From Phyllobates terribilis (lineage: Eukaryota): a stretch of 64,000 nucleotides of DNA. Under the pieces are notes generated by a model. It was not told the origin of the DNA. It searched no databases and saw only the letters and a list, made by a program, of their open reading frames with translations. The translations under genes were made by a program, and so were the position numbers. Positions 35 to 63,930 of the stretch are shown in pieces (position 1 is the stretch's first letter; the number at the start of each line of letters is the position of its first letter). The stretch is taken from the NCBI RefSeq assembly GCF_046119375.1, contig NW_027362764.1, positions 293,074,001 through 293,138,000 on the forward strand, in the 5' to 3' direction.

Positions 35-1028
35 TAAATACAAGCAGGTGTAGTACTATAAGAACTTAAAACTTAACGTTTATTACCATTAGATAAAATA
101 TGTGCAAAATGCAAGGACCTAAAAACACACAGTTTGACTGTCTGTGATATAGAATAGCCAAAAGAACTTCCATATATTGTTGCTTCCAGAGATCTAAATA
201 TATGTCATATAAGCATATTGTATCTCTAACACAAACCAAGGAAAAAATGGCAATAAGAAATAGTGGAGCCCACGGTACACTATATCAACTTATTGTACCC
301 CAAAATGTGAGAACATGAAAACACTCGCCCTGAGATATGGGAACATGAAAACACTCGCCCTACCAGTGGTGACCATTTAACTTTGTTATGTATAGAAATG
401 GAACATCCTCACCAATTTTGATATCTGTTCTTGCTCTCAGACTTCAGAGGGGGCTCCATATAATGGAGGTGAACCGAAACTCATGAGGTCACCAGCCAAA
501 TACCGCTCCCTAGATGCCGCTCCCGACGCGTTTCTTAGCCTTAGCTATTCATCAGGGGAAAAGGGAAGAGGACATGCGGTATGCACGCTGCCCAAAATCA
601 CGCAGCTCATTCAACAGACAGCGCTACTTAACGTTCTAATAGATCCTCTTTTAAATCCTGGTCGCGCTCTGTTCATAATCGTGTCACTTCCGGTTCCGGT
701 CACCTGACATCCGGTATGTGGAACGCAGATGCCGGCCGTGACACGCAAGCGTCACTTCCGGTGTGCGTGTCATAGACATGATGAAATCGCACACAACGGA
801 GCGACGGCCAGGGGGGACGCAGGATCGCCAATTGACATCCTACGTTGGATGGCACCATGGAAACCTCCCATCCATAAATACCCCAAGCCGGGGCAGGTGT
901 CCAGAGCATATAGTAGCTGACACTCATCCAGGCACATACCATATGTACCGCGGTATATATAACCGCGTCCATTCTGCCCCAGTGGTAAAAGAGCTGAAAA
1001 TACTTCATAGGTCCAGAACCGCACAGTG
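35..1028 (-). repeat. Inverted copy of the PLE pseudo-LTR (left arm)
   Basis: Reverse complement of 3672-4665; only about three mismatches seen by eye. Confidence 0.97.
521..559 (-). ncRNA. Minimal type I hammerhead ribozyme (copy in the inverted arm)
   Basis: Reverse complement of 4141-4179. Confidence 0.85.
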
Positions 1029-2573
1029 GAGGTCTTGAATAGGGGTCTGACTTTTGTACCGACAACAGATTATAATTCTTTTGAGGTCATAAAGGACGTA
1101 AATTTGTTTGTGCGCAAGTTGAAGTGGCGCAAGCACTACATTAAGATTGATAAACAGGCATGCGCGGAATTGGGGGTTCGTGAAGAACTCCTACCTGACA
1201 TTAGAACCCTTTTTCACCTCGGTGATGTTGATCCTAACCTTGAGGGTAATGGTCCATTCACCAATCTGAAACTGAAGAGTACCAAAATGCCACCTCCACA
1301 GAGTGATTTGAGTCCCATTGATGTATTCCTGAACATGGTGACTAAAGACTTGAGGGACCTGGAAAATGATTCCAGACGTTTTAGACACAATTTCACTCGT
1401 TGTGAGATGCAGGCATTGAGGTCCCTAGAAAATGATGAACAGATCACCATAAAACCTTCAGATAAAGGGGGTAACGTGGTGATCATGGATACCAGTGAGT
1501 ACTATTTGATGTGCAGTGTAATACTAAATGCTAAGGAGTGTTATAGCACATTAAAGGCGGACCCCACGAGGAGATTCTCTCAAGAATTAGAGGAATTGGC
1601 AAATGAGGCTATGAGGGATGGGATCTTAAATAAACAGGAGAGAGATTTTATCTGTCCAACCCATCCAGTTATGTCCACCTTCTATAGTCTTCCAAAGGTA
1701 CATAAGGGCCTGAACCCACTGAAGGGACGACCCATAATATCGGGAATAAACAATCTAACCCAAAATCTGGGAATATATTTGGAGAAGGTACTTAAACCCT
1801 TTGTCTTAAGCTTGAACTCATTTATCGGTGACACCAATGACCTGCTTCGCAAACTAGAAGGTATGACAGTTGATAAAGACGTGACTCTAGCCAGCATCGA
1901 TGTCGAGTCACTATACTCCTCAATACCCCATGATAGGGGTCTGGAGGCGATACGCTTTTTCCTTATGGGGAGAGGCAAACAATTTGAGCGACACAATCAC
2001 TTCGTGATGAAGGCCCTTCAGTTCTGCTTGACAAAAAATGTGTTCCTCTTCGGTGGGAAGTACTTCCACCAACTCAGGGGTACTGCGATGGGGAGCCCTT
2101 GTGCCCCATCGTATGCCAATTTGTACCTGGGTTGGTGGGAGGAAACCGTGGTGTTTGGAGACATCCCCATTGTAGGTGGTGAAAATATTTTGCTATGGGT
2201 TCGATATATTGACGACGTCCTAGTTCTGTGGAAAGGGGATAAAACATCCTTTGGTAACCTCGTGGAAAGGCTTAATCACAATGACCTTAACCTGCATTTC
2301 ACTTTTGAGTTTGACCCCCATGAGTTGCCCTTCCTGGACATTTTGATACGGATAGGGAAGGATGGAGAGATAGAGACCAGTACATATAGGAAAACAACCG
2401 CCTCAAATTCTCTCCTCAGGTGGGAAAGCAACCATCCAGTCCCGCTTAAGAGGGGCATACCGAAGGGGCAATTCATGAGGGTCCGGAGGAACTGTTCGGA
2501 CGATGCCATTTTAGAGCCCAGGCCATCGATCTTTGTCAAAGATTCTATGAGAGGGGTTATCCAAAGAAGGTGA
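1026..2573 (+). CDS. PLE reverse transcriptase; 5'-truncated at the inversion junction and frameshifted near 2509-2512
   Basis: Motifs LNRGLTFVPT, KPSDKGGNVV, PKVHK...GRPIISG, DVESLY, GTAMGS, YIDD, LPFLDI, TYRK. Adding one T to the T4 run gives DAIFRAQAIDLCQRFYERGYP, in frame with the next ORF. Confidence 0.92.
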   Translation: MEVLNRGLTFVPTTDYNSFEVIKDVNLFVRKLKWRKHYIKIDKQACAELGVREELLPDIRTLFHLGDVDPNLEGNGPFTNLKLKSTKMPPPQSDLSPIDVFLNMVTKDLRDLENDSRRFRHNFTRCEMQALRSLENDEQITIKPSDKGGNVVIMDTSEYYLMCSVILNAKECYSTLKADPTRRFSQELEELANEAMRDGILNKQERDFICPTHPVMSTFYSLPKVHKGLNPLKGRPIISGINNLTQNLGIYLEKVLKPFVLSLNSFIGDTNDLLRKLEGMTVDKDVTLASIDVESLYSSIPHDRGLEAIRFFLMGRGKQFERHNHFVMKALQFCLTKNVFLFGGKYFHQLRGTAMGSPCAPSYANLYLGWWEETVVFGDIPIVGGENILLWVRYIDDVLVLWKGDKTSFGNLVERLNHNDLNLHFTFEFDPHELPFLDILIRIGKDGEIETSTYRKTTASNSLLRWESNHPVPLKRGIPKGQFMRVRRNCSDDAILEPRPSIFVKDSMRGVIQRR

Positions 2574-3316
2574 TAGCCGAGGCCTATGGGGGGACTCTGG
2601 CCAGGGACCGCTCCTCCTTGTTACACCCATCCCCAAATTTGGATAAGGACAACACTTTCTGCAGACTCATCACTACTGTCACCAATCAGTCATATACAGT
2701 CCGTAGGATACTACAAAAACATTGGCCGATTTTACTAATGGACGAGGATATTGGTGACGTGGTCGATTCAAGACCTATGATTACCTATAAAAAGGGTAGA
2801 TCCCTTAGGGACAGATTGGTCCACAGTCACTATATGGGCCATATGGGGAACAAAAGGTTGAAAAGTTCCATAATCGGCTTTTTTAGATGCAGTGGATGCG
2901 TATCATGTAAAGTTATCACGCAAGGGAAAGACTTCATAAGTAATGTCACTGGAAAAACATTTGTTGTCAAACATTTCATTAACTGTAGATCCAAGGGAAT
3001 TATCTACATGGCTAAATGTGTCTGCGGAATGGAATATGTGGGGAAAACAAGGAGAGAATTGAGAAGAAGAGTAGGGGAGCACCAAAGGGATATTGTCCTG
3101 AAAAGAGATACCCCCCTGGCGAAACATGTGAACAACGTACACCCGAACAGTAGGGATATAATACGTTTCATGGGAATTGACAAAGTTACGGCCCCACCAA
3201 GAGGGGGCGACTGGGACAAACTGATCCTGCAAAGAGAGACGAAGTGGATCTTTAGACTGCGGACAATGGCTCCCTACGGCCTTAATGAGCAGCTGTCCTA
3301 CAGGCCATTCCTATAA
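2570..3316 (+). CDS. C-terminal part of the PLE protein: Cys-rich linker plus GIY-YIG endonuclease
   Basis: CSGCVSC linker, GIIYMAKCVCGMEYVGKT, RRVGEH, LQRETKWI, PYGLN. Confidence 0.92.
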   Translation: MIAEAYGGTLARDRSSLLHPSPNLDKDNTFCRLITTVTNQSYTVRRILQKHWPILLMDEDIGDVVDSRPMITYKKGRSLRDRLVHSHYMGHMGNKRLKSSIIGFFRCSGCVSCKVITQGKDFISNVTGKTFVVKHFINCRSKGIIYMAKCVCGMEYVGKTRRELRRRVGEHQRDIVLKRDTPLAKHVNNVHPNSRDIIRFMGIDKVTAPPRGGDWDKLILQRETKWIFRLRTMAPYGLNEQLSYRPFL

Positions 3317-4179: not shown

Positions 4180-4890
4180 GCGGCATCTAGGGAGCGGTAT
4201 TTGGCTGGTGACCTCATGAGTTTCGGTTCACCTCCATTATATGGAGCCCCCTCTGAAGTCTGAGAGCAGGAACAGATATCAAAATTGGTGAGGATGTTCC
4301 ATTTCTATACATAACAAAGTTAAATAGTCACCACTGGTAGGGCGAGTGTTTTCATGTTCCCATATCTCAGGGCGAGTGTTTTCATGTTCTCACATTTTGG
4401 GGTACAATAAGTTGATATAGTGTACCGTGGGCTCCACTATTTCTTATTGCCATTTTTTCCTTGGTTTGTGTTAGAGATACAATATGCTTATATGACATAT
4501 ATTTAGATCTCTGGAAGCAACAATATATGGAAGTTCTTTTGGCTATTCTATATCACAGACAGTCAAACTGTGTGTTTTTAGGTCCTTGCATTTTGCACAT
4601 ATTTTATCTAATGGTAATAAACGTTAAGTTTTAAGTTCTTATAGTACTACACCTGCTTGTATTTATATTTACTTTTGTGTAGTTATTTCTACAATCCCCG
4701 TTGCTGCATATTGATTTAGCTTAGGACTTTAGCAGGTCTGATCGCAGGATCAGGTCCCCTGTTACATCGTAGGGATTAAGCTGAATTCTATCGTAGGGAC
4801 AGATCTCCTCTCTTTCCTTAGCTCTGGTAGCAGAACATAACAGTAAGTCCAGCCAGCAAATTCTCTAAGGAAAGATTTTTCTGTTCCATC

Positions 4891-7800
4891 ATGGTGTCGG
4901 TTCAGGATTTGGTTCATCGCCTGCAGGGACTCTCTCTGGAGGTGGCCGAGCTCCGTCAGCACGTGAGTAACTGTCCTGGAGCACATTTCTTAGAGCCTAA
5001 GGTATGTTTGCCGGATTTATTTTTTGGTGAACACCGAGAATTTTTTTCATTTAAAAATGCTTGCTTATTGTATTTTCGTTTGAAACCTAAGTCCTCTGGG
5101 GATGAATCCCAGCGCGTAGGGTTCATAATGTCACTTTTGCGCAAAGAGCCTCAGGAGTGGGCCTTTTCTTTGCAACCTAGTGATACATGCTTCAGATCAG
5201 TGGATAGTTTTTTTTCTGCTTTGGGACTATTATATGATGATCCTGACCGTGTCGCATCAGCTGAGACTGAGTTGAGACGTTTAAAACAGGGATCAGGTAA
5301 TGTGGAAAAATATTGTACTCATTTCCGTCGTTGGTCTACTCAAACAGGGTGGAACGATTCTGCTCTGAAAAGTCTATTTCTTGCTGGGCTCAGTGAAAGG
5401 GTTAAAGACCTGCTAATTGCTTATCCTACACCTGAAGATTTGCAACAGGCTATGCAATTAGCTATACGGGTGGATAGAAGACTGCGTGCAAGGGTTAATG
5501 AGAGCAAATCCTCTGCTATGTCAGTTTCTGGTTATGAGAATGTGTGTACTAACAGTGGTGAACCGATGGAGATTGGATCGGTGGCACCTCGCTCTCAAGA
5601 AAAAGACCGTCGATTTTCTGAAGGCTTGTGTTTCTATTGCGGAAAATCTGGTCATTTGATTAAAGGCTGTGAGCTTCGTATGAAGAAAGAAAAAAATATG
5701 GTCAGTCACGCCCGTATTGCCTGTTTAAATTCCAAGGGTATATTTTTAGCTGCTTCCACGATTGCTCAGAAAAAATTAATGGAATTTCGGGTGTTTGTTG
5801 ATTGCGGGTCTACTCTGAATGTAATTGATGGGGGATTTGTGGAAAGACTCAATTTAAAACCTGAACCTTTATCATCCCCCATTGCTGTGGTTTCTGTGGA
5901 TGGTTCCCCTTTGAAGAATATTACTCTCAAGGTCTGTGAATTTCCTCTCACTATTAATGGTGTTCAAAATGAGAAATTGGATTTGGTAGTGTTGAATAAC
6001 TTGCCTTCTCCAGTAATATTGGGATTGCCCTGGTTAAAATTTCACAATCCTGTACTGGATTGGTCTACCAGTGAAATTAAATCCTGGAGCCATAAATGTT
6101 ATGACAAGTGTTGTAACGGGCGTATTGCAGCTTTGGATAGGGGAGAATTGCCTGTTCCTATTCAGGATTTTTGGAGAGTTTTTTCTGAGAAGGAATCGCA
6201 GGTTTTGCCTCCCCATAGAGACTATGATTGTTCTGTTGAATTTGTCCCTGGAGCGACTCTTCCTAAAAGTCGTTTATTTAACCTTACTATTCCTGAGAGG
6301 AAGGCTTTGGAGGAATACATACAGACAAGTTTGGCCGCCGGTCACATTAGGCCCTCTAAGTCTCCTGTGGCGGTTGGATTTTTTTTTGTAAAAAAAAAGG
6401 ACGGCGGTTTACGTCCTTGTCTGGATTTTCGTGAGATTAACAAAATTACTGTACGCAATCCTTACCCACTGCCATTGATTCCTGATCTGTTTAACCAGTT
6501 AATGGGGGCCAAGTGGTTCTCTAAAATTGACCTTAAGGGGGCATACAATCTGTTGCGCATGAAGGAGGGTGACGAATGGAAGACTGCTTTTAACACTCCT
6601 GTGGGTCATTTTGAGAATCTGGTTATGCCTTTTGGTCTTACTAATGCTCCTGCATTTTTTCAGAATCTGATTAATGACATCCTTAGACCTTTGATCGGCA
6701 AAAATGTGGTTGTGTATTTGGATGACATTTTGATTTATTCGCCGGATCTGGAGTCTCATTGGCGGAGCGTGCGTGAGGTATTACAGTTATTAATGGACAA
6801 TTCGCTTTTTGCTAAGCTGGAGAAATGTGAGTTCGCTGTACAGAGAATTAGTTTTTTGGGCTACATTATCTCCAGCAAAGGTTTTGAGATGGATCCGGTT
6901 AAGGTTCAGGCTGTGCAGGAATGGCCTAGGCCTATTGGTTTGAAATCGATACAGAGGTTTTTGGGTTTCGCCAATTACTACAGAAAATTCATAAAAAAAT
7001 TTTCTAGTATTGTCAAACCTCTGACTGATCTCACCAGGAAAGGTGCTGATGCGGTTCAGTGGTCTTCTGAGGCCATTGAAGCTTTTGTGTATCTCAAGGA
7101 GAGGTTCACCTCTGCTCCCATCCTTATGCAGCCTGATGTTACTAGGCCGTTTTTGGTTGAGGTTGATGCTTCCTCTGTGGGGGTTGGCGCAGTATTGTCT
7201 CAGGATAACGGGGATGGATTACATCCCTGTGCCTTTTTTTCAAAAATTTTTTCGGAGACTGAACTGAATTACGATATTGGTAATCGGGAATTATTGGCTA
7301 TTAAACTCGCATTTGAACACTGGCGCCACTTCTTGGAAGGTGCGGAATTTCCCGTTCAGGTTCTTACGGATCATAAAAATCTGATATATCTTGATGCTGC
7401 CAAGCGCCTGAATGCCCGTCAGGCTAGGTGGGCACTGTTTTTCTCGCGGTTTAATTTCTCCGTTACTTACATCCCTGGTACTAAGAATGTTAAGGCGGAT
7501 GCCTTGTCTCGCAGTTTTTCTCCCATAGTCGGTGCTGAGAAAGAGGAGAACATTTTACAAGAAGGTGTTGTGATAGCTGCTTTGGACTCCGTTTTGGAAA
7601 ATGAGATTCTTAAAGCACAGGAGAATGCCCCTTCTAACACTCCTCATGGGAGGTTGTTTGTGCCTGGGACCTTTAGGAGAGATTTGTTTGTTGAGTGTCA
7701 CGAATCTCGGTTGGCAGGTCATCCCGGAATCTCTGAGACCAAGAGACTGGTGGGTCGCAGTTTTTGGTGGCCTGGATGGCAGAAGGAAGTCATTAAGTGG

Positions 7801-8958
7801 GTGCGTCAATGTACTATATGTGCTAGATCTAAGTCCTCACATACTCCTGCTGCGGGGTTGCTTTGTCCTTTGGAGGTTCCCAGTGCTCCTTGGACACATT
7901 TGCCTATGGACTTTATAACTGACCTTCCCCCCTCTGAGGGTTTTACTGTCATCTGGGTGGTCGTGGACCGTTTTAGCAAGATGTGTCACTTGGTTCCTTT
8001 CGTCAAACTGCCCTGCGCTAAAACTCTCGCTAAGGCCTTTGTCAAGGAAATTGTCAGACTTCATGGCGTTCCTACTGACATTGTTTCTGATAGGGGTCCT
8101 CAGTTCGTGGCTCGTTTTTGGCGTGCCTTTTGTGATAGGTTGGGAGTTCATTTGTCGTTCTCGTCCGGATATCATCCTGAATCTAATGGCCAGACAGAAA
8201 GGAAAAACCAGGATGTTGAGCAGTTCTTGCGTTGTTTTGTGGCAGACAATCAAGAGGGGTGGTCTGAGTTTCTGCCACTTGCTGAATTTGCTCTGAACAA
8301 TCATACATCTTCTTCTGCTGGTTGTTCGCCTTTTTTTTGTTGTTCTGGGAGACATCCGTCGTATGGGTCGTTCTCCAAGTTGGGATCTGCCGTGCCTGAG
8401 GAGGAGAATTTTTCCGGTGATTTGGAGAGAGTTTGGACGGATGTGCGTGGTAATCTTCAGGAGGCCAACAGAAAATCTAAAGACTACTTTGATAGGAAAC
8501 GACAGGAGGTTTTGTTCGCTGTTGGTGACATGGTTTGGTTGTCCTCTAGGAATCTGCGGTTGAGGATTCCTTCAAAGAAATTGGGTCCCAAGTTTGTAGG
8601 GCCCTTTAAGGTGCTTCAGGTTGTCAACCAATCTGCTGTTAGGTTGGAGGTTCCTACCTCCTGGAGAATTAATCCGGTATTTCATGTCTCTCTGTTGAAA
8701 AAAGCTGTTGTATCGGATTGTGACGCCTCTGCCTCTGTTCCTCCGGTGGTGGAGGACGGGGAATATGAAATTTCTCGCATCCTTAACTCTAGACGGTATA
8801 GAGGTAGTTTGCAGTATCTTGTGGCCTGGAAAGGTTTCGGTCCCGAGGATAACTCTTGGGTGAGGTCGGATGATGTTTCCGCGTCCAGACTTATCAGAGC
8901 GTTTCACAGGAGATTTCCTGATAAGCCTGGTCCTAGGGGATCCGGAGGATCCTCTTAG
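4891..8958 (+). CDS. gag-pol: Intact Gag-Pol polyprotein (gag, CCHC knuckle, protease, RT, RNase H, integrase, chromodomain)
   Basis: 1355 aa uninterrupted. CFYCGKSGHLIKGC, VDCGS, YLDD, DAS...GAVL, GHPG...CTIC, VSDRGPQF, NGQTER, YLVAWKGFGPEDNSW. Confidence 0.97.
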   Translation: MVSVQDLVHRLQGLSLEVAELRQHVSNCPGAHFLEPKVCLPDLFFGEHREFFSFKNACLLYFRLKPKSSGDESQRVGFIMSLLRKEPQEWAFSLQPSDTCFRSVDSFFSALGLLYDDPDRVASAETELRRLKQGSGNVEKYCTHFRRWSTQTGWNDSALKSLFLAGLSERVKDLLIAYPTPEDLQQAMQLAIRVDRRLRARVNESKSSAMSVSGYENVCTNSGEPMEIGSVAPRSQEKDRRFSEGLCFYCGKSGHLIKGCELRMKKEKNMVSHARIACLNSKGIFLAASTIAQKKLMEFRVFVDCGSTLNVIDGGFVERLNLKPEPLSSPIAVVSVDGSPLKNITLKVCEFPLTINGVQNEKLDLVVLNNLPSPVILGLPWLKFHNPVLDWSTSEIKSWSHKCYDKCCNGRIAALDRGELPVPIQDFWRVFSEKESQVLPPHRDYDCSVEFVPGATLPKSRLFNLTIPERKALEEYIQTSLAAGHIRPSKSPVAVGFFFVKKKDGGLRPCLDFREINKITVRNPYPLPLIPDLFNQLMGAKWFSKIDLKGAYNLLRMKEGDEWKTAFNTPVGHFENLVMPFGLTNAPAFFQNLINDILRPLIGKNVVVYLDDILIYSPDLESHWRSVREVLQLLMDNSLFAKLEKCEFAVQRISFLGYIISSKGFEMDPVKVQAVQEWPRPIGLKSIQRFLGFANYYRKFIKKFSSIVKPLTDLTRKGADAVQWSSEAIEAFVYLKERFTSAPILMQPDVTRPFLVEVDASSVGVGAVLSQDNGDGLHPCAFFSKIFSETELNYDIGNRELLAIKLAFEHWRHFLEGAEFPVQVLTDHKNLIYLDAAKRLNARQARWALFFSRFNFSVTYIPGTKNVKADALSRSFSPIVGAEKEENILQEGVVIAALDSVLENEILKAQENAPSNTPHGRLFVPGTFRRDLFVECHESRLAGHPGISETKRLVGRSFWWPGWQKEVIKWVRQCTICARSKSSHTPAAGLLCPLEVPSAPWTHLPMDFITDLPPSEGFTVIWVVVDRFSKMCHLVPFVKLPCAKTLAKAFVKEIVRLHGVPTDIVSDRGPQFVARFWRAFCDRLGVHLSFSSGYHPESNGQTERKNQDVEQFLRCFVADNQEGWSEFLPLAEFALNNHTSSSAGCSPFFCCSGRHPSYGSFSKLGSAVPEEENFSGDLERVWTDVRGNLQEANRKSKDYFDRKRQEVLFAVGDMVWLSSRNLRLRIPSKKLGPKFVGPFKVLQVVNQSAVRLEVPTSWRINPVFHVSLLKKAVVSDCDASASVPPVVEDGEYEISRILNSRRYRGSLQYLVAWKGFGPEDNSWVRSDDVSASRLIRAFHRRFPDKPGPRGSGGSS

Positions 8959-12533: not shown

Positions 12534-13542
12534 TATATCCAATTATATTTGGAGCTCTGTTCACTTTTGCATCAAAGGTTCTTTTTCTGATGGCTCTGTT
12601 TTAACATATAAAAAGGGAAGTATTACAGATCCTAATGGATTCCATTGATTGCAATGGAAGCTATCAGAAGTCATTTCATGGGGTATTATAGTATAGATCA
12701 GTTGTTCTCAAACTCTGCAACACCACCCCTAATTCTTGGTGAGGTGCAGTTGGAGAAGCAGTATTTAAGTAGTTTAAGAGGTCGGCCACTATTCAGGCCA
12801 CCAGTTTATAAATATTCTATTGCCACTTGTAAAATAAAAACAGCTTATACTTCCCTTTCCCCTCCCCAAACCGGAGACGTCAGGTTTTCCAAAGCTCACT
12901 AATGGGCTGCAGGAAATGAGAGCACAATGGTCCATAATGTCCACTGATTGGATGTAGGGCTCACATGGAAAAAATACTGTATGTTATTTGAGCCTCTGAA
13001 GACTTGGCATCGACATTGCTGGAATATAGCCTGTATGAGAAGTATGTATAGTGTATTTTTATTTTACAGTGGGAAATGCAGTGATGAGCAAAATGGTAAC
13101 AATATTTTGAACTTTTGACTTTCACGCTCCATATCTCACCATCCACTACTGCTTGGAACGTGAGACTACCATAATTTTATAGACCTTCATCTTGGCCAGG
13201 GGTGGGCAATTAATTTTCCCGAGGGGCCACATGAGAGACTGTGACTGTTGGGGAGGGCCGAAGCAATAGGCTGAAATGAATTCTGCTCAATATTAATATT
13301 AACATATAATTCTAATTATTATATTATTAATGATTATGTTACTGTAAAAGTCAGAAGGCCGGTAAAACCTAGGATTTACCGGTCAATCTGGACATTTACC
13401 GAGGCCATCGGTAAAAGCTCAAAATGAAAAGTAAAATTGGACTTTTACCTGTGAAATCTTGGTAAATGTTAACATTTACCCTCGAGCGTGGTAAAAGTCA
13501 GAAATATCAGGTGTGAAGATGGAACATCTGACTTTAACCAAG

Positions 13543-13812
13543 CGCAGTTGGTAAATGTGCACATTTACCACGGCTTCTTGGTAAATGTAGCTGAGAAGGG
13601 TGTAAGCGCAGTTGGTAAATGTGCACATTAAAATGTAGCTGAGAAGGGTGTAAGCGCAGTTGGTAAATGTGCACATTAAAATGTAGCTGAGAAGGGTGTA
13701 AGCGCAGTTGGTAAATGTGCACATTAAAATGTAGCTGAGAAGGGTGTAAGCGCAGTTGGTAAATGTGCACATTTACCATGGCTTCTTGGTAAATGTAGCT
13801 GAGAAGGGTGTA
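13543..13812. repeat. 48-bp subterminal tandem repeat of the Ginger-like element
   Basis: Unit TGTAGCTGAGAAGGGTGTAAGCGCAGTTGGTAAATGTGCACATTAAAA in about 4-5 copies; contains the GGTAAA motif of the TIRs. Confidence 0.9.
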
Positions 13813-13820
13813 ATAAAAAG

Positions 13821-14724
13821 TGTAAGCCACCGCGGGAAAGGTGTCTGATTAGGCAGATACGGCGAGGAAATGGAGGACACAGTGTTCAAAGTTTTTATAA
13901 ATGTAATAAGAGTAAATGGGGAAAATATGGTAATAACAATGAACAAAATCTGCTACCCTGTAAGGTATCTGCTACCCTGTAACGTATATACGTTCTATAT
14001 ATACAGATGTCAATCCTGACTATCCTTAACGTATGTACGTTCTACATATACAGATGTCAATCCTGACTATCCTATGATTATTGTTCCGATCATACAAAAA
14101 GTGCCCACTTCCCGCTAACATACAACCACTAACCCCTCACTAAAATATGCAAAAGAGAACGTCCTATGAATCTTAGGGTATCAGTGTTCTGCAGCACCCT
14201 CTCACAAAAGTTACAAGAAGTACACACGCTGCCGGTGTAGTAGTGTAAAAATTGTCCTGTACTTAGCTTCCTGTAGAGCGCAGAGTCCAAAGTCTTTCCA
14301 AGGGCCCCTTGCAAGGTGGACGCTAACACTGCTCACACGATTTACCGTTGCCGCGCCAATGTGGTAGAACCAGAAGATATGCAGATAAGCTCTGAGCCGG
14401 AGTTGCTGGGTGCCATGAACGGTCTGTTCCACCCGAGCACCGTAGTCTCTGATCAGGGGAATCGGAAGACAGCGCATTCCGAGAAAAGGCTGGAAGGAAA
14501 CAGCGCAACAGCCCTGTCTGGGCTCAGTCTAGTCAGCACAGCACCAGTCCTCTCACTCTCCCTAAAATAGCTCCTGCCTCAAGTCCTAGTTTCCTGGGGT
14601 TCTCTTCTTAGATTGCTGCCCAATCACTGCCTGAAGAAAATCACTAACTCATCAATGGCAGTGTTAGACCAGTAGATGGTGCTGTTGTACAGTCTTTCAC
14701 ACAATGCTGAGTAACCCTATTACA
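13821..14724. mobile_element. Probable solo LTR inserted in the Ginger element
   Basis: TGTAA...TTACA termini with 4-bp flanking repeat AAAG (13817-13820, 14725-14728). The GGTAAA-rich host sequence resumes after it. Confidence 0.55.
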
Positions 14725-14891
14725 AAAGAACATGGGATTCTTGCCAAGCAGTGTGGGTAAATGGGCGTACTTCCGGTTTGTGTCCTCATGCTGGACGACT
14801 GCCTGAGTGTTTTGCAAGCTGCACATACTGCTCAAAACTGCATAGCCGACTGCCTGTCAAAGCTGCACAGGCACTAGCTGATTGTCAGATC

Positions 14892-16391
14892 ATGAGTGAG
14901 GAAATGAAAGATCGTTTTTCGGAGCTCTTGAATGAAGTGGTGGAGAAAAAGCGAGCTAATCATTTTTATCTCGCGGACGATAAATACGAGAATATATTGA
15001 AAGAAGTGAAGGAGGCTAAGGTGGCGGTACCTAAACGGAGTATTCACTACAGGCGTTTGAAGAGGTACGACATCATGACCGTCGGAAGTGATGAAAAGTT
15101 AATTGCACCAATCTCGTGTGAAAAAGACAACGTGTTGCATTACTTTCGGTGTGCAGAACTCTTTAGTGTCATTCATAATGCGCACATCAGTACCGGCCAC
15201 GGAGGGCGGACCAGGATCCTAAAGGAGGTGAACCGTAAGTTCAAAAATGTCACAACGGAGTCAATAGTTATTTATCTGCGACTCTGCCAGCCATGCCAGA
15301 AAAAACAGAAGATTACCAAAAAAGACCTTGTTGTGAAACCCATCCTACACAGTGAAATGAATTCTCATGCTCAAGTCGATCTCATTGACATGCAATCCAA
15401 TTGTGATAATGATTTCAAGCTCATATTCGTCTATCAAGACCACGTCACTAAATTTGTTCTTCTACGTGCTTTATGTGCTAAAAGAGCAGAAGAGGTTGCG
15501 TACCACCTCCTTGACATTTTTTCCACTTTTGGTGCCCGGTGTATTCTGCTTTCTGATAATGGGAGGGAATTTTGTAACAAGGTCATACAGAGTTTGTGCG
15601 CGATGTGGCCTGATATGAAAATAGTGCATGGTAAACCAAGACACAGCCAGTCCCAAGGCTCCGTGGAAAGAGCAAATCAAGACATTGAAAACATGTTGTC
15701 AACGTGGATGGAAACAAATAAGACACCCAAGTGGTCTGAGGGCCTTCGCTTTGTACAAGCAATGAAAAATAGAGTATACCATGAGGGAATTAAATGCTCG
15801 CCCTATGAAGCTATGTTCGAAGTACCAATGCAGATGGGTCTAGCTACCTCCAAAATTCCTAGTGATGGGATCAGAAATCTCTCTTCAGAAGAAGACCTTG
15901 AAAAAATGTTTGTTGGTTTGCAAGAGGAAGCTAGTGATCCGACATCACCAACAGAAGCCGAAGGGTCAGATGAATCTAACTTTCATCACACGTTAGCACC
16001 AACAGCAGCAGAAGCTTCGGATGAATCCAACTGTCATCAGCTGTTCACAACGGAAGGAGAAGCTTTGGACTTATCCAACTGTCCGCACACCTTAACAGCA
16101 TATGAAACTCCACCAATTTTGCCATCCAAGAATAATGAAGACCTAAAAGAAAAAAGTGTCGAGTCAAAGCCTTCTAAGAAAGATGGAGAACTTCATGATG
16201 ATCAGCAACCTGACGTTTTGATTTCGCATACAATCAATAGAAGAATTGGTGCGGTCAGAAGAGTTCGAAAAGCTGCAAGAGAAGGACTTGAAACACAGGC
16301 CAAGAAAATGTTGAAATGTTCCAGTCAAAAATTACCCGAACCTAACATTGGACAGAACATCAGAATCAGAATTTCAGACGTCGGCCGTTGA
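14892..16391 (+). CDS. KRBA2/SCAND3-like integrase-type transposase; premature TGA near the C-terminus
   Basis: HHCC (H..TGHGG...CQPC) and DDE core (QVDLID, SDNGREF, GSVERAN). Homology appears to continue past the stop (KMDPKSIIAIIIKKEDDFYQVGT). The likely start is ATG 14892, within track ORF 14751-16391. Confidence 0.85.
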   Translation: MSEEMKDRFSELLNEVVEKKRANHFYLADDKYENILKEVKEAKVAVPKRSIHYRRLKRYDIMTVGSDEKLIAPISCEKDNVLHYFRCAELFSVIHNAHISTGHGGRTRILKEVNRKFKNVTTESIVIYLRLCQPCQKKQKITKKDLVVKPILHSEMNSHAQVDLIDMQSNCDNDFKLIFVYQDHVTKFVLLRALCAKRAEEVAYHLLDIFSTFGARCILLSDNGREFCNKVIQSLCAMWPDMKIVHGKPRHSQSQGSVERANQDIENMLSTWMETNKTPKWSEGLRFVQAMKNRVYHEGIKCSPYEAMFEVPMQMGLATSKIPSDGIRNLSSEEDLEKMFVGLQEEASDPTSPTEAEGSDESNFHHTLAPTAAEASDESNCHQLFTTEGEALDLSNCPHTLTAYETPPILPSKNNEDLKEKSVESKPSKKDGELHDDQQPDVLISHTINRRIGAVRRVRKAAREGLETQAKKMLKCSSQKLPEPNIGQNIRIRISDVGR

Positions 16392-16489
16392 AAAATGGAC
16401 CCTAAGTCGATCATTGCGATTATTATAAAAAAAGAAGATGACTTCTACCAAGTGGGGACTACCGCTGGGATCCTAAATGCAGTAGGAAC

Positions 16490-16968
16490 TCCCCGCCCAC
16501 TAGGGTCATCCCGCCCTCTGGCCGGACCCCCCTTCTCCGCCACTTAAAGATCACTACTTACTGGAGGCTACCAGAGGCTTCCCAGGTCTCGTCGGCCGGC
16601 CGCATCCTCCTTCTTCCGGGTCACATGACTGCATACGTCACCACGAAATTGACAGGTGCATAAGTCATGTGACACAAGTTGTGTCACATGACTTACGCAT
16701 GCGTCACTTGCGTGGTGACGTATGCAGTCATGTGACTCGGAAGGAGAACGCGGACGGCGAGACCTGGGAAACCTCCGGTAAGTAGCAATTTAGCTTTATA
16801 CCTGTCTGCCCTGCACACTCTCACCATCCATGCCTTCCGATGATGCATGAAACATGCATTATGTGAAGGCACGGATATATCCGACAGATATCGGGATTAT
16901 CCGTATCCGTACAGCCCGTTATCCGCTCGGATAACGGGTCTGGACGGATCTATCCACTTATCCCTAGT
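16490..16968. mobile_element. MITE-like fragment with an internal palindrome, truncating the Ginger transposase 3' end
   Basis: Hairpin centred on GACACAAGTTGTGTC (~16670-16685); ends CTTATCCCTAG. The left boundary is approximate. Confidence 0.5.
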
Positions 16969-17759
16969 CATAATTACAGAATTACATAGTTTTGAAGTTG
17001 CGTTATTCATGTATTTGCGTTAATTTGACATTTTTGAGAAGTATTTTCCTACATAAATGTTTCGTATTTGAATTCAGAATTACATAGTTTTGAAGTTGCG
17101 TTATTCTTGTATTTGCGGTAATTTGTCATTTTTGAGAAGTATTTTCCTACATAAATGTTTTCTATTTGCATTTTCCTATTTGCATTCAGAATTACATAGT
17201 TTTGAAGTTGTGTTATTCTTGTATTTGCGGTAATTTGTCATTTTTGAGAAGTATTTTCCTACATAAATGTGTTCTATTTGCATTTTCCTATTTGCATTTG
17301 TTCATTTGCATTTGCATTTTGAAGAATAAAAATATTTCTAACGATTAAGGCCTTCATCAGAGTGGGAAATTGCGTTTAGTTAACTTTTACCACCATCATC
17401 TGCTGGTAAGAGTCAGAATTCTGTGACTCAAAGTTACTTTTACCAACACATGCTGGTAGTTACTTTTACCAACACATGCTGGTAAATGTAAACATTTACC
17501 AATTCGCCCAGGTAAAAGTCCAAAATCGTTCGTTTATATGGAATACATCTGACTTTTACCAACGCTGTTGAGAAATGTTAAGATTTACCAAGACTTCACC
17601 GGTAAAAGTCCAATTTTACTTTTCATTTTGAGCTTTTACCGACTGCCTCGGTAAATGTCCAGATTGACCGGTAAATCCTAGGTTTTACCGGCCTTCTGAC
17701 TTTTACAGTAACAATTACATTAATATTAATTGTATAACTTAATATTGAGCAGACATCCC

Positions 17760-18925
17760 CCTATATACAGCTTGAGCCCCCCACACAGCCTCTCTATATA
17801 CAGCATGAGCCCCACACAGCCCCCCTATGTCCAGCATGAGCCCCACACAACCCTCCCGTGTCCAGCATGAGGCCCACAAAGCCTCTCCGTGTCCAGCATG
17901 AGCCCCACAAAGCCTCTCCATGTCCAGCATGAGCCCCACACAGCCCCCCCATGTCCAGCATGAGCCCCACACAGCCCACATGTCCAGCAGGAGCCCCACA
18001 CAGCCCCCCTCCATTTCCAGCATGAGCCCCACAGAGCCCCCCATGTCCAGCATAAGCCCCACACAGCCCCCCCATGTCCAGCATGAGCCACACACATCCC
18101 CCCCATGTCCAGCATGAGCCCCACACAGCCCCCCATGACCATCATGAGCCCCACACAGCCCCCCATGTCCAGAATGAGCCCCACAAAGCCCCCCCCCATG
18201 TCCAGGATGAGCCCCACACAGCCACCCTATGTACAGCATGAGCCCCACACAGCCCTCCAAGTCCAGCATGAGCCTCACACAGCCCCCCATGTCCAGCAAG
18301 AGCCCCACACAGCCCCCCCGTGATCAGCATGAGCCCCACACAGCCCTCCCGTGTCCAGCATGAGCCCCACACAGCCACCCATGTCCAGCATGAGCCCCAC
18401 ACAGCCCTCCCGTGTCCAGCATGAGCACCACCCACCACCCCATGTCCATTATGAGAGCCCGAGAGCCTCCCCAGTGTCCAGCAAGAGAGCCCTCCCCAGT
18501 GTCCGGCATGACAGCCCTCCCCAGTGTCCAGCATGACTGCCCTCCTCAGTGTCCAGCATGACAGCCCTCCCCAGTGTCCAGCATGACAGCCCTCCCCAGT
18601 GTCCAGCATGACAGCCCTCCAGTGTCCAGCATTAAACCCCCAGTGTCCAACATGAGATCTCCCCCTGTGTCCAGAATGAGAGCTCCCCCTGTGTCCAGCA
18701 TGAGAGCTCCCCTGTGTCCAGCATGACAGCACTCCCTGTGTCCAGCATGAGAATCCCCCTATGTACAGCATGAGAGCCCCCATGTGTCCAGCATGAGAGT
18801 CCCCCTCTGTGTTCAGCATGAGAGCCCCCCTGTGTCCAGCATGACAGGCCTCCCTGTGTCCAGCATGAGAGCCCCCGTGTCCAGCATTAAAGCCCCCCCT
18901 GTGTCCAGCATTAAAGCCCCCCCGT
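17760..18925. repeat. C-rich minisatellite (TGTCCAGCATGAGCCCCACACAGCCCCCCCA-type, ~22-31 bp units), copy 1
   Basis: Dozens of degenerate units whose consensus drifts along the array; accounts for the many low-complexity ORFs here. Confidence 0.95.
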
Positions 18926-18927
18926 GT

Positions 18928-20945
18928 CCGTATCCGTATCCGTACAGCCCGTTATCCGCTCGGATAACGGGTCTGGACGGATCTATCCGCTTATCCCTAG
19001 TCATAATTACAGAATTACATAGTTTTGAAGTTGCGTTATTCATGTATTTGCGTTAATTTGACATTTTTGAGAAGTATTTTCCTACATAAATGTTTCGTAT
19101 TTGAATTCAGAATTACATAGTTTTGAAGTTGCGTTATTCTTGTATTTGCGGTAATTTGTCATTTTTGAGAAGTATTTTCCTACATAAATGTGTTCTATTT
19201 GCATTTTCCTATTTGTATTTGTTCATTTGCATTTGCATTTTGAAGAATAAAAATATTTCTAACGATTAAGGCCTTCATCAGAGGCGGAAATTGCGTTTAG
19301 TTAACTTTTACCACCATCATCTGCTGGTAAGAGTCAGAATTCTGTGACTCAAAGTTACTTTTACCAACACATGCTGGTAGTTACTTTTACCAACACATGC
19401 TGGTAAATGTAAACATTTACCAATTCGCCCAGGTAAAAGTCCAAAATCGTTCGTTTATATGGAATACATCTGACTTTTACCAACGCTGTTGAGAAATGTT
19501 AAGATTTACCAAGACTTCACCGGTAAAAGTCCAATTTTACTTTTCATTTTGAGCTTTTACCGATTGCCTCGGTAAATGTCCAGATTGACCGGTAAATCCT
19601 AGGTTTTACCGGCCTTCTGACTTTTACAGTAACAATTACATTAATATTAAATGTATAACTTAATATTGAGCAGACATCCCCCTATATACAGCTTGAGCCC
19701 CCCACACAGCCTCTCTATACACAGCATGAGCCCCACACAGCCCCCCTATGTCCAGCATGAGCCCCACACAACCCTCCCGTGTCCAGCATGAGGCCCACAA
19801 AGCCTCTCCGTGTCCAGCATGAGCCCCACAAAGCCTCTCCATGTCCAGCATGAGCCCCACACAGCCCCCCCATGTCCAGCATGAGCCCCACACAGCCCAC
19901 ATGTCCAGCAGGAGCCCCACACAGCCCCCCTCCATTTCCAGCATGAGTCCCACAGAGCCCCCCATGTCCAGCATAAGCCCCACACAGCCCCCCCATGTCC
20001 AGCATGAGCCACACACATCCCCCCCATGTCCAGCATGAGCCCCACACAGCCCCCCATGACCATCATGAGCCCCACGCAGCCCCCCATGTCCAGAATGAGC
20101 CCCACAAAGCCCCCCCATGTCCAGGATGAGCCCCACACAGTCACCCTATGTACAGCATGAGCCCCACACAGCCCTCCAAGTCCAGCATGAGCCTCACACA
20201 GCCCCCCATGTCCAGCAAGAGCCCCACACAGCCCCCCCGTGATCAGCATGAGCCCCACACAGCCCTCCCGTGTCCAGCATGAGCCCCACACAGCCACCCA
20301 TGTCCAGCATGAGCCCCACACAGCCCTCCCGTGTCCAGCATGAGCACCACCCACCCCCCCATGTCCATTATGAGAGCCCGAGAGCCTCCCCAGTGTCCAG
20401 CAAGAGAGCCCTCCCCAGTGTCCGGCATGACAGCCCTCCCCAGTATCCAGCATGACTGCCCTCCTCAGTGTCCAGCATGACAGCCCTCCCCAGTGTCCAG
20501 CATGACAGCCCTCCCCAGTGTCCAGCATGACAGCCCTCCAGTGTCCAGCATTAAACCCCCAGTGTCCAACATGAGATCTCCCCCTGTGTCCAGAATGAGA
20601 GCTCCCCCTGTGTCCAGCATGAGAGCTCCCCTGTGTCCAGCATGACAGCACTCCCTGTGTCCAGCATGAGAATCCCCCTATGTACAGCATGAGAGCCCCC
20701 ATGTGTCCAGCATGAGAGTCCCCCTCTGTGTTCAGCATGAGAGCCCCCCTGTGTCCAGCATGACAGGCCTCCCTGTGTCCAGCATGAGAGCCCCCCCTAT
20801 GTCCAGCATGAGAGCCCCCTGTGTCCAACATGAGAGAGCCCCCTGTGTCCAGCATGAGAGCCCACCTGTGTCCAGCATTAAAGCCCCCGTGTCCAGCATT
20901 AAAGCCCCCCCTGTGTCCAGCATTAAAGCCCCCCCTTGTCCAGCA
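18928..20945. repeat. Tandem duplicate of ~16898-18927 (Ginger right end plus minisatellite)
   Basis: The sequence restarts at TCCGTATCCGTACAGCCC. A second right TIR with ATTA ends at 19634-19638. It has one fewer ~112-bp subrepeat and several substitutions. Confidence 0.92.
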
Positions 20946-21020
20946 TGAGAGCCCCCCTGTGTCCAGCATGAGAGACCCCCCCTGTGTCCAGCATGAGAGC
21001 CCCCCCCACTGTGTCCAGCA
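19680..21020. repeat. C-rich minisatellite, copy 2
   Basis: Same unit succession as 17760-18925, extended by several units. Confidence 0.95.
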
Positions 21021-21483
21021 TATACTTACCTCACTCCCTGTTCTCCTGGCGCTCCTGTCTGCGATGCACTGACTCTCCGCAGTGCGCAGGCTGATGTCAT
21101 CACGTCAGCTGTTTCTAACGCTGATTGGTGGAAGAGGGAGGCGGTGGCCCCTCCTCCACCAATGCATTCACCGCTGATTGAGACAGTCGTGACGGCGTGC
21201 GTGCAGGCGGGGAAGGGTACAGTGCGGCCACTGTTACCAGCCCCTCGGCTGTCTCGGTCCGCGGGCAGGTCTGGAACAGCCAGAGGGCCGGATGTGGCCC
21301 GCGGGCCGCACTTTGCCCAGGTCTGATCTTGGCTATCTCATACATGAATTTGACTTGCAACTATTTAGCATATGATTAATTATGTTGATTCTTATCATGT
21401 CACTGTATTGTTACTATTTTGCTTCTGGTGGTGGAAAAATCTTTTTCTGTCTGCATACTACAAAATACAACCTGTTCTCACAT

Positions 21484-22487: not shown

Positions 22488-23823
22488 GCTTTTATCCTAA
22501 GTCATGTGATAAGGCTCGTTAAAGGGTCAATATTGACTTTTAGGATTGCTACTTCCTATAGGTGGCACTAGAGTTCTAGTTCTCTTCCTCTCTGAAGAGA
22601 CAATTTGCATATTTTCCAGAGGAGCATTGCGGCTTAAAAAGTCTCCTCACCTTGACATGCTTAGCATGTCACTCTCCACAAGGAGAAAAGTTACCCCTTA
22701 GATACCAATCTGATCGAAAGCATGCCCAGAAGGATTAAGGTAGTGTTGAAAGCCAAAGGTGGATTTACAAAATACTAACAAAATAATAAAAATTTAAATT
22801 TAGATTTTTAGAAGCAAAACAGTAACCATGCAGTGACATGACAAGAATCTGCATAACTAATCATATGCTAAATAGTTGCATGTCAAATTTATGTATGAGA
22901 TAGCCAAGATGACTGTCTATAAAATGATGTAGTCTCACGTTCAAAGCAGTAGTGGATGGCGAGATATGGAGCCTGAAATTCAAAAGTTCAAACCATTGTT
23001 ATCCTTTTGCTCATCACTGAATGATAGTAAAGAATGGTTTATCCTAGTAATGGACAGCTCATTTAAAATTTGAGCAGTCCTTTCTCTGGCTGTAGCAATC
23101 TTTGCTGTATCAACATTCAAAGGACAAATGAAAAGTAAATTGAGCAATTTTTTTACTTTTCACATGGACTTCCACTATACATAGGGAGTCCCAGGATTCT
23201 TCTTAGTCTATCAGCTGAAATCAGGCATCTCCGTGGTCTGGTGAGTCCCAAGAAGAAAAAGTTTGGGATTTGGTATGGACAGGTATGCTGTTCTGCCTGC
23301 TATCAACAGAAACCTTAGGGTACGTGCCTACAATCAGGAATAGTAGCGTTTTGAACGTAGTGTATTTTCGCTGCTTCCAAAATGCTACATTCTACATTAC
23401 AAGCACAGTGGAAGGGATCTATAGAAATCCAATGCCCATTGTGCTTCTTTTTAATGTTGCGAAAAATTGCCTGTGGTGCAGGTTTGCGAGCCGTAGCATG
23501 TAAATTTCTGTAGCGGAGACGCTTTTCTCCAGTGCATATTTTCCCCAATAGACTGTCATTAGATGCGGTAAATCAGTGTAGTTCAAAAAAACATGCGTTT
23601 AATGTAGAATGCAGCGCTTTGGACGCAGTGAAAATACGCCACTATTCCTGACCGTAACCCATACATACATTTTAGATGAAAGATAATAAATAAAAAAAAG
23701 TTCAAACCAAATAATATGCTACAACATTTAATAGAGTGCTTGACACACTATTATGGGGGATGTATAGACCACACTGCTATAGGCATATGTGTGGCTGCCA
23801 CATAGAGGATATATGCATATTAA

Positions 23824-30998: not shown

Positions 30999-32616
30999 CA
31001 GTGCCTTGTGAAAGTATTTGGCCCCCTTGAACTTTTCTACCTTTTGCCACATTTCTGGCTTCAAACATAAAGATATAAAATTCTAATTTTTTGGGGAAGA
31101 ATCAACAACAAGTGGGAAACAATCGTAAAATGGAACGAAATTTATTGGATATTTTAAACTTTTTTAAAAAAATTAAAAACTGAAAAGTGAGACGTGCAAT
31201 ATTATTCGGCCCCTTTACTTTCACTCCAGAAGTTCAGTGAGGATCTCTGAATGATCCAATGTTGTCCTAAATGACTGGTAATGATAAATGGAATCCACCT
31301 GTGTGTAATCAAGTCTCCGTGTAAATGCACCTGCTCTGTGATAGTCTCAGGGTTCTGTTTCAAGTGCAGAGAGCATCATGAAGACCAAGGAACACACCAG
31401 GCAGGTCCGAGATACTGTTGTGGCGAAGTTTAAAGCCGGATTTGGATACAAAAAGATTTCCCAAGCTTTAAACATCTCAAGGAGCACTCTGCAAGCGATC
31501 ATATTGAAATGGAAGGAGTATCAGACCACTGCAAATCTACCAAGACCCGGCTGTCCCTCTAAACTTTCATCTCGAACAAGGAGAAGACTGATCAGAGATG
31601 CAGCCAAAAGGCTCATGATCACCCTGGATGAACTGCAGAGATCTACAGCTGAGGTGGGAGAGTCTGTCCATAGGACAACAATCAGTCGTACACTGCACAA
31701 ATCTGGCCTTTATGGAAGAGTGGCAAGAAGAAAGCCATTTTTCAAAGATATCCATGAAAAGTCTCGTTTGAAGTTTGCCACAAGCCACCTGGGAGACACA
31801 CCAAACATGTGGAATAAGGTGCTCTGGTCAGATGAAACCAAAATCAACTTTTTAGCCACAATTCAAAACGATATGTTTGGCATAAATGCAACACAGTTCA
31901 TCACCCTCAAAATACCATCCCCACTGTCAAACATGGTGGTGGCAGCATCATGGTTTGGGCCTGCTTTTCTTCAGCAGAGACAGGGAAGATGGTTAAAATT
32001 GATGGGATGATAGACGGAGTCAAATACAGGACCATTCCGGAAGAAAACCTGTTGGAGTCTGCAAAAGACCTGAGACTGGGACGGAGATTTATCTTCCAAC
32101 AAGACAATGATGCCAAACATAAAGCAAAATCTACAATGGAATGGTTCAAAAATAAATGTATCCAGGTGTTAGAATGGCCAAGTCAAAGTCCAGACCTGAA
32201 TCCAATTGAGAATCTGTGGAAAGAGCTGAAAACTGCTGTTCACAAACGCCCTCCATCCAACCTCACTGAGCTCGAGCTGTTTTGCAAGTAAGAATGGGCA
32301 AGAATTTCAGCCTCTCGATGTGCAAAACTGATAGAGACATACCCCAAGCGACTTGCAGCTGTAATCGCAGCAAAAGGTGGTGCTACAAAGTATTAACTTA
32401 AGGGGGCTGAATAATATTGCACACCCCACTTTTCAGTTTTTAATTTTTTTTAAAAGTTTAAAATATCCAATAAATTTCGTTCCACTTCACGATTGTGTCC
32501 CACTTGTTGTTGATTCTTCCCCCCAAAAATAGAATTTTATATCTTTATGTTTGAAGCCAGAAATGTGGCAAAAGGTAGAAAAGTTCAAGGGGGCCAAATA
32601 CTTTCACAAGGCACTG
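30999..32616 (+). mobile_element. Tc1 transposon (Tc1-B) with a disrupted transposase (31378-~32396)
   Basis: Long TIRs CAGTGCCTTGTGAAAGTATTTGGCCCCCTTGAAC, TA flanks. [31 protein letters not shown]; has a frameshift and a TAA. Confidence 0.95.
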
Positions 32617-37286: not shown

Positions 37287-37299
37287 GTTTGCTCGGGCC

Positions 37300-38250: not shown

Positions 38251-38277
38251 GTTCGCTCAGAGAGGTCCACCTAGACA
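38232..38277 (+). promoter_or_regulatory. -1 programmed ribosomal frameshift signal
   Basis: G GGA AAC in the gag frame (38232-38238), 5-nt spacer, 8-bp stem TGTCTAGG/CCTAGACA. The -1 frame is open into the protease. Confidence 0.88.

Positions 38278-61029: not shown

Positions 61030-63930
<2,901 letters not shown>

What the first reader, a model, noticed from the sequence alone, without database searches (positions are those of the whole stretch)
13333..17717. TIR-bounded Ginger2-type transposon with a near-intact KRBA2/SCAND3-like integrase in a vertebrate
Seen: TGT...ACA ends, ~165-bp TIRs, 4-bp TSD and a 500-aa HHCC+DDE ORF. Established: Ginger transposases are related to LTR integrases, and mammalian SCAND3/KRBA2 integrase domains are reported to derive from Ginger2-like elements. 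Inference: this may be a recently mobile vertebrate relative of those donors, possibly horizontally acquired. I cannot tell whether the family is already catalogued.
Basis: partly seen in the sequence, partly recalled or inferred. Interest (0 to 1): 0.72.

Follow-up and report, generated by a model that had tools for sequence, protein, structure and literature searches.

The report
Young Ginger2 transposon family in frog
This is a broken copy of a jumping-gene family with hundreds of near-identical copies in a vertebrate (likely frog) genome, from a group once reported absent from vertebrates; it likely arrived from invertebrates, but it is only a cousin, not the source, of the mammalian genes SCAND3 and KRBA2.

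Summary
Real element: window 13337-17713, TGTTA...TAACA, ~166-bp TIRs, 4-bp TSD ATTA, H2C2+DDE ORF. It meets every published Ginger2 criterion tested (TGTNR ends, TIR length, 4-bp TSD, RTATAY target, no GPY/F or YPYY, no RT). The family is large and young: 860 exact TIR tips, 146 exact catalytic-core matches, copies 1.1% from their majority sequence, star tree, 38 of 43 two-ended copies with exact 4-bp TSD. The host is a vertebrate (KRAB and MHC-I genes); frog is inferred. The window copy is not near-intact: a private stop plus a 560-bp deletion, shared by at least 88 copies, remove the Cys-rich C-terminus of the 608-aa transposase; 2 of 40 sampled coding copies are fully intact. Closest relatives: poison frog Ranitomeya (91%), an unnamed protein (78% core), a psyllid (69% core). 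The tree rejects a clade with SCAND3/KRBA2 (AU p~1e-61); their sister group holds a different frog element (Hyperolius). Frog Ginger2 proteins fall in at least three lineages among invertebrate ones, which suggests repeated horizontal entry. New member of a known superfamily that overturns the 2012 'absent in vertebrates' statement; Dfam and current Repbase could not be searched.

The parts
13333..13336 (.). Left target-site duplication ATTA
13337..13502 (+). Left TIR, TGTTA..., 166 bp core (degenerate to about 13592), with repeated GGTAAAWGY motifs
13535..13821 (+). Subterminal 48-bp tandem array, copy number varies between copies
13822..14891 (+). 5' internal non-coding region, shared by long copies (207 candidates, 40 scored at 98-100%); origin unexplained
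14892..16391 (+). Truncated Ginger2 transposase ORF, 499 aa of 608: H2C2 (15183-15296), D163 15378, D222 15555, E259 15666, acidic disordered linker, ends at a private stop
16392..16481 (+). Remaining coding remnant up to the junction of a 560-bp deletion (4-bp microhomology at 16478-16481) shared by at least 88 copies
16482..17547 (+). 3' internal region with hairpins (16569-16780) and a 98-112-bp tandem array (16962-17283); present in full-length copies too
17548..17713 (-). Right TIR ending ...TAACA
17714..17717 (.). Right target-site duplication ATTA
18931..20850 (+). Tandem duplicate (97.5%) of the element's 3' part and right flank, giving a second right end at 19634 with the same ATTA flank; later than the insertion (inferred)
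13197..21325 (.). Host hAT-type non-autonomous element (CAGGGGTGGGCAA ends, 8-bp TSD ATCTTGGC) into whose AT-rich part the Ginger2 inserted; hAT label recalled from ends and TSD length

Best explanation
This is a defective copy of a young, multi-copy Ginger2 DNA transposon family in a vertebrate (likely frog) genome, which likely moved by cut-and-paste using an integrase-like transposase supplied by intact copies and likely entered the host lineage horizontally from an invertebrate. Shown: ends, TIRs, exact 4-bp TSDs at a palindromic TR-TATA-YA target, hundreds of copies, intact 608-aa ORFs elsewhere, the shared deletion of this copy. Inferred mechanism: the transposase binds the repeated GGTAAAWGY motifs of both TIRs, cuts at the terminal CA, and joins both 3' ends to a symmetric target with a 4-bp stagger, as in PFV and Ty3 intasomes; gap repair makes the TSD. 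Deletion derivatives (this one, a second deletion class, and 525-600-bp MITEs) were mobilised in trans. One burst a few million years ago (rate recalled), then decay. It is a cousin of the SCAND3/KRBA2 donor lineage, not that lineage.
For: Ends and TSD. 32 of 40 fetched coding loci have both TIRs, 28 of those 32 an exact 4-bp TSD; with 10 short copies and the window 38 of 43; flanks R....Y in 37 of 38, T at -2 in 36 of 38, A at +2 after the TSD in 38 of 38, RTATAY in 24 of 38, the published Ginger2 target. TIR tip matches insect Ginger2 TGTTACGGTAAAAGTA at 14 of 16. Exact 22-mers: TIR tip 860, DDE core 146, C-terminus 52, this deletion junction 88; reversed controls 0. K2P to majority 1.1% (0.5-2.0), pairwise 2.2%, 95% of tree length in tips. 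Full 608-aa ORFs in 3 of 40 loci, 2 with intact H2C2 and DDE, both TIRs and TSD. Model pLDDT 82; best folds PFV and Ty3 integrase. Tree: family + Ranitomeya (100), then an unnamed protein and psyllid (100/99), within insect and scorpion proteins. One clade of all frog rows rejected, p 1e-85; with SCAND3/KRBA2 rejected, p 1e-61.
Against: No excision, empty site or polymorphic insertion was shown, so cut-and-paste rests on structure and family knowledge. No close invertebrate donor: the nearest named one is 69% identical in the core, the 78% protein has no taxon, and no synonymous-distance test was possible. Absence from other vertebrates was not surveyed (120 of 841 hits were listed). Named Repbase Ginger2 proteins are not in my tree; I compared their printed cores by eye only. 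AU tests used LG+G4 without the mixture model, and the groups were named after a first tree was seen. The 40 loci are the best-scoring of 87 matches, so older copies are under-sampled.
Confidence: 0.85

Rival explanations
2. Same Ginger2 element, but inherited vertically from an old vertebrate Ginger2 lineage, with losses in most lineages, rather than acquired horizontally.
For: Ginger2-type proteins are annotated in four named frogs (Ranitomeya, Hyperolius, Pelobates, Discoglossus); no near-identical invertebrate donor was found; print mentions traces in fish and birds.
Against: The frog proteins do not form a clade and each nests among invertebrates; the family shows one homogeneous recent burst without older layers among the copies sampled; the Ranitomeya and host masters differ at only 7 of 330 residues. 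Horizontal transfer of Ginger2 is reported between insects.
Confidence: 0.15
3. The family is still transposing today.
For: 2 of 40 sampled loci are intact; sparse stranded poly(A) reads over the ORF, all in the sense orientation under the usual library chemistry, in 3 of 4 runs of organism A.
Against: No two sampled copies are closer than 1.0% and none is closer than 0.5% to the majority; intact ORFs carry private substitutions; read depth is about 1-3 and the runs carry only a species label shared with a holder.
Confidence: 0.12
4. It is a fragment of an LTR retrotransposon or Polinton, or a domesticated single-copy integrase gene.
For: Best solved matches are retroviral and Ty3 integrases.
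Against: TIRs not LTRs, no RT or other ORF in the element, hundreds of dispersed copies with their own TSDs, far from two Gypsy integrases of this window in the tree; Polintons lack H2C2 and make 6-bp TSDs.
Confidence: 0.01

Closest known systems
Ginger2/Tdd DNA transposons (Bao, Kapitonov, Jurka 2010, PMC2836005; passages read), e.g. Ginger2-1_AP
   Same: TGTNR ends, TIR within 50-180 bp (Ginger2-1_AP 166 bp), 4-bp TSD, RTATAY target, H2C2+DDE, no GPY/F or YPYY; printed cores of aphid families (Ginger2-5_MyPe, -3_MyPe) share the same motifs by eye.
   Different: Vertebrate host; about 430 or more copies against the 1-50 listed in that paper's table; 4.7-4.8 kb full length; target preference extends to TRTATAYA.
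Ginger2 and Ginger2_NA of Bombyx mori and Rhodnius prolixus (PMC3845634; passages read)
   Same: TIR tip 14 of 16 identical, TATA target, 530-650-bp MITE derivatives, horizontal transfer proposed.
   Different: Those autonomous copies are partial; here intact ORFs survive. Protein relationship not tested.
Mammalian SCAND3 (ZBED9) and KRBA2 (Llorens et al. 2012, PMC3575427; parts 1-2 of 3 read)
   Same: Integrase core from the same broad insect-type Ginger2 clade, 42-48% identical.
   Different: Single-copy domesticated genes with SCAN/KRAB; their sister lineage carries Znf_SCAND3 and is a different branch, represented in another frog.
Ranitomeya imitator 'KRAB-A domain-containing protein 2-like' gene models (P0004, P0015, P0016)
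   Same: 91% identical; a sister subfamily of this element.
   Different: Annotated as genes, truncated (345-440 aa); TIRs there not examined.
GingerRoot / IS3EU (PMC6839031; parts 2-3 of 7 read)
   Same: Integrase-related DDE DNA transposon, reported in fish.
   Different: 6-bp TSD, mostly TA...TA ends, no HHCC.

Membership tests
Ginger2/Tdd | TGTNR termini | tested here: met
   TGTTA...TAACA in the window and most copies; definition
Ginger2/Tdd | TIRs of about 50-180 bp | tested here: met
   166-bp core, degenerate to about 256
Ginger2/Tdd | 4-bp TSD | tested here: met
   38 of 43; 13 of 13 non-TATA flanks at exactly 4 bp
Ginger2/Tdd | AT-rich RTATAY target preference | tested here: met
   24 of 38 exact, 37 of 38 R....Y
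Ginger2/Tdd | H2C2 zinc finger plus DDE core | tested here: met
   Pfam over cut-off for P0002; H103, C132, C135, D163, E259 invariant in 70 homologues
Ginger2/Tdd | No GPY/F and no YPYY motif | tested here: met
   no literal match in the three full ORFs
Ginger2/Tdd | Phylogenetic grouping with named Repbase Ginger2 transposases | tested here: inconclusive
   Groups with insect homologues and SCAND3/KRBA2 away from Gypsy; Repbase sequences seen only as printed alignment, not in the tree
Ginger2/Tdd | Excision and reinsertion | not testable with these tools
   needs an assay or population data
Ginger1 | CCGG/CCGT TSD, YPYY and GPY/F motifs, OTU or Ulp1 domain | tested here: not met
SCAND3/KRBA2 donor lineage | Sister position to SCAND3+KRBA2 | tested here: not met
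   AU p 1e-61
SCAND3/KRBA2 donor lineage | Internal Znf_SCAND3 domain (shared by SCAND3 and its sister elements) | tested here: not met
   absent here, present in P0238 and P0032
Gypsy LTR retrotransposon | LTRs, gag-pol with RT | tested here: not met
Polinton/Maverick | 6-bp TSD, polymerase B, integrase without H2C2 | tested here: not met
   no Polinton integrase was in the tree
GingerRoot/IS3EU | 6-bp TSD, TA ends, no HHCC | tested here: not met

The most novel reading that the evidence does not exclude
Frogs have been invaded at least three separate times by invertebrate Ginger2 transposons; this family is the first described young, high-copy vertebrate Ginger2 with intact transposases, while another frog carries the sister lineage of SCAND3/KRBA2 and a third a KRAB-zinc-finger gene model fused to a Ginger2 core. 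Frogs would thus replay, in recent time, the invasion and capture that gave mammals these two genes.
Probability: 0.45. Interest if true: 0.68.

Novelty: new member of a known kind. Interest (0 to 1): 0.52.

Why it matters
The insect-to-mammal transfer proposed for SCAND3/KRBA2 rested partly on finding no Ginger2 transposon in any vertebrate (PMC3575427). A young family with hundreds of copies in a vertebrate shows that Ginger2 can colonise and amplify in vertebrate germ lines, and the Hyperolius proteins offer a vertebrate route to the mammalian genes. Naturally intact copies with TIRs and a sharply defined TRTATAYA target make it possible to test how an integrase-like DNA transposase excises and inserts, which bears on the link between DNA transposases and LTR integrases. 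It also shows that 'KRBA2-like' gene models in frog annotations are at least in part transposon copies.

Tried and rejected
Searching the own genome with the SCAND3-sister protein P0032 found no second family (stricter first look, not proof of absence). The 5' internal region gave no Pfam match for two short ORFs, no open frame kept across four copies, and a loose-end motif from RNA reads has no exact match in the genome: origin unresolved. No RNA holder was listed among indexed runs. pN/pS of private changes was 0.57 (0.67 without CpG) with 29 stops, uncorrected for transition bias: not used as evidence of selection. The 50%-cluster search added no names or closer relatives; the Atlas look-up of the Ranitomeya homologue gave arthropod KRBA2-like and chordate KRBA2 clusters only. 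Literature searches found no description of a vertebrate Ginger2 family; three frog papers were false hits on an author name. Passing mentions exist: DNA/Ginger2 at 0.001% in one Xiphophorus genome, 0 after filtering; a few mostly domesticated Ginger2-related sequences in birds; unresolved 'Ginger' in a salamander transcriptome and in zebrafish (Repbase zebrafish entries are Ginger1). First impression that the 3' hairpin region was a later MITE insertion into the ORF was wrong: full-length copies carry it, and the window copy has a deletion. Trees left out redundant mammal rows and rows covering under 270 of 335 core residues (157 of 235 kept; Discoglossus dropped so); searches used 47 and 45 chosen rows.
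Full report
Observation. The element runs from 13337 (TGTTA) to 17713 (TAACA) and is flanked by ATTA on both sides. The ends pair at 152 of 166 positions without gaps and more loosely to about 256 bp; both carry repeated GGTAAAWGY motifs. One ORF, 14892-16391, gives 499 aa with an H2C2 finger and D163/D222/E259. The element sits in the AT-rich part of a hAT-type MITE (13197-21325, 8-bp TSD), and its right end plus flank was duplicated in tandem (second end at 19634). The genome has 10.6 Gb and many KRAB and MHC-I genes, some KRAB boxes on the same contig, so the host is a vertebrate; frog is my inference.

The family. Exact 22-mer counts over the genome: 860 TIR tips (at least about 430 copies), 146 catalytic cores, 52 C-termini, 88 copies of this copy's deletion junction, with 0 for each reversed control (some small contigs may be duplicates). 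I fetched 40 of the 87 best protein matches: 32 have both TIRs and 28 of these an exact 4-bp TSD. With 10 two-ended short copies (525-1312 bp) from 29 other TIR loci and the window itself, 38 of 43 have the TSD; all 13 with non-TATA flanks repeat exactly 4 bp; shuffled pairing gives 18 on average, 24 at most. The target is palindromic, TR-TATA-YA. Of the 32 two-ended coding copies, 10 are full length (about 4.6-5.6 kb), 16 share the window's deletion and 6 a second one. Over 1500 bp of ORF, 41 copies lie 1.1% (0.5-2.0) from their majority sequence and 2.2% from each other, in a star tree: one burst, roughly 4-11 million years ago at recalled rates of 1-3e-9 per site and year, and no sign of very young copies in this sample.

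The window copy is defective. Full-length copies encode 608 aa ending in a Cys-rich tail; 3 of 40 loci keep that frame and 2 (L091, L092) also keep all H2C2 and DDE residues, both TIRs and a TSD. The window copy lacks the last 78 codons through a 560-bp deletion with 4-bp microhomology and has a private stop 30 codons before it. Since the deletion class has its own TSDs at many loci, it was mobilised in trans (inference).

Mechanism. The AlphaFold model from 70 homologues (pLDDT 82, linker 352-435 disordered) matches PFV and Ty3 integrases best (sequence match to PFV E 3e-15). With CA-3' ends, a 4-bp TSD and a symmetric target, the likely route is a symmetric transpososome that cuts at the terminal CA and joins both ends with a 4-bp stagger. 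Excision itself is not shown. Sparse stranded poly(A) reads cover the ORF in one orientation, sense under usual chemistry, in 3 of 4 runs of organism A: weak evidence of low transcription.

Relatives. Best hits are three Ranitomeya imitator gene models (91%), an unnamed protein and a psyllid protein (78% and 69% in the core), then many arthropod and unnamed proteins; Ranitomeya is the only named vertebrate among the 120 listed of 841. The Ranitomeya and host versions differ consistently at 7 of 330 residues. Contigs of four runs under three coded organism labels hold the same family, with TIRs and C-terminus in two of them and the 560-bp deletion in one (one label may be the source of the assembly). 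SCAND3 is 41-44% identical. From the SCAND3 side the nearest non-mammalian proteins are an unnamed one (60%), Hyperolius (56%) and Physella (54%). Three trees agree: this family with Ranitomeya, the unnamed protein and the psyllid; SCAND3+KRBA2 sister to the Hyperolius/Physella group; Pelobates in a third place; Gypsy far outside. AU tests reject this family with SCAND3/KRBA2 (p 1e-61), all frog rows together (1e-85) and all vertebrate rows together (4e-55). The Znf_SCAND3 domain follows the same split. Horizontal entry is therefore the likely origin, but no donor is identified and no dS test was possible.

Comparison with the known. All structural criteria of Ginger2 in PMC2836005 are met (passages), and the TIR tip, TATA target and MITE size match insect Ginger2 in PMC3845634 (passages). 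PMC3575427 (parts 1-2 of 3 and the Ginger2 rows of supplement 1) found no Ginger2 transposon in any vertebrate. PMC10045372 says Repbase held 30 autonomous Ginger2 entries in May 2022 (passages); the 24 names printed in its Data S3 (parts 11-12 of 18) have no vertebrate suffix as I recall the codes; 6 entries were not seen. Nine literature searches found no described vertebrate family, only passing mentions (passages of PMC4705583, PMC11835228, PMC9998948, PMC4746887). PMC6839031 (parts 2-3 of 7), PMC5753468, PMC3670739 and PMC12400950 (passages) added definitions only. Subscription papers, Repbase Reports, Dfam and unseen supplements may already list such a family. Two unchecked notes of this scan describe old Ginger2-like remnants in other vertebrates, so vertebrate Ginger2 may be less rare than print suggests.

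Verdict. A genuine, young Ginger2 family in a vertebrate; the window copy is a dead deletion derivative; the link to SCAND3/KRBA2 is that of a cousin. New member of a known kind, of real interest to transposon specialists because it corrects a stated absence, keeps intact copies that can be assayed, and points to Hyperolius and Pelobates as better leads for the SCAND3/KRBA2 question. Interest 0.52.

Noticed in passing
P0188, P0238 (Hyperolius riggenbachi gene models), with P0032, P0206, P0207: Frog proteins in the sister clade of SCAND3+KRBA2 (100/99), with Znf_SCAND3; P0238 is 592 aa with the Cys-rich C-terminus, and the two models lie on different contigs. The printed core of Repbase Ginger2-1_LMi (locust, recalled) looks nearly identical to P0032 by eye.
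   Followed up: partly
P0124 (Pelobates fuscus 'zinc finger protein 420-like'): Gene model joining a Ginger2 core, a KRAB box and C2H2 fingers: an independent KRBA2-like fusion or a model artefact. A Penaeus model (P0125) joins a Ginger2 core to zinc fingers too.
   Followed up: partly
window 13197-21325: hAT-type non-autonomous element with 8-bp TSD and minisatellites that hosts the Ginger2; it is itself inside another repeat (13100-13196 inverted-similar to 22903-22998).
   Followed up: partly
window 16898-20850: About 2-kb tandem duplication (97.5%) across the right end of the element.
   Followed up: yes
L092:4654-5400: Poly(A) reads on both strands over the 5' internal region, some with shared differences and loose ends, which suggests a diverged homologue transcribed elsewhere.
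   Followed up: partly
G000:C1:1075186099-1078275302 (L029, L030): A cluster of segmentally repeated units with several Ginger2 pieces head to tail and nested.
   Followed up: no
window 4831-8958 and 37201-41656: Chromodomain-bearing Gypsy-type retrotransposon ORFs; the first is one open gag-pol frame of 1375 aa.
   Followed up: no
window 1011-3316: RT ORF followed by a GIY-YIG-like frame, Penelope-like (RVT_1 E 3e-6; label recalled).
   Followed up: no
window 31345-32291, 53576-54559, 61848-62666: Tc1-like transposase frames (label recalled from the translation).
   Followed up: no
G000:C1:579796664 and 579811089 (L113, L114): MHC-I-like matches inside open frames of 2926 aa, unusually long for such exons.
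   Followed up: no
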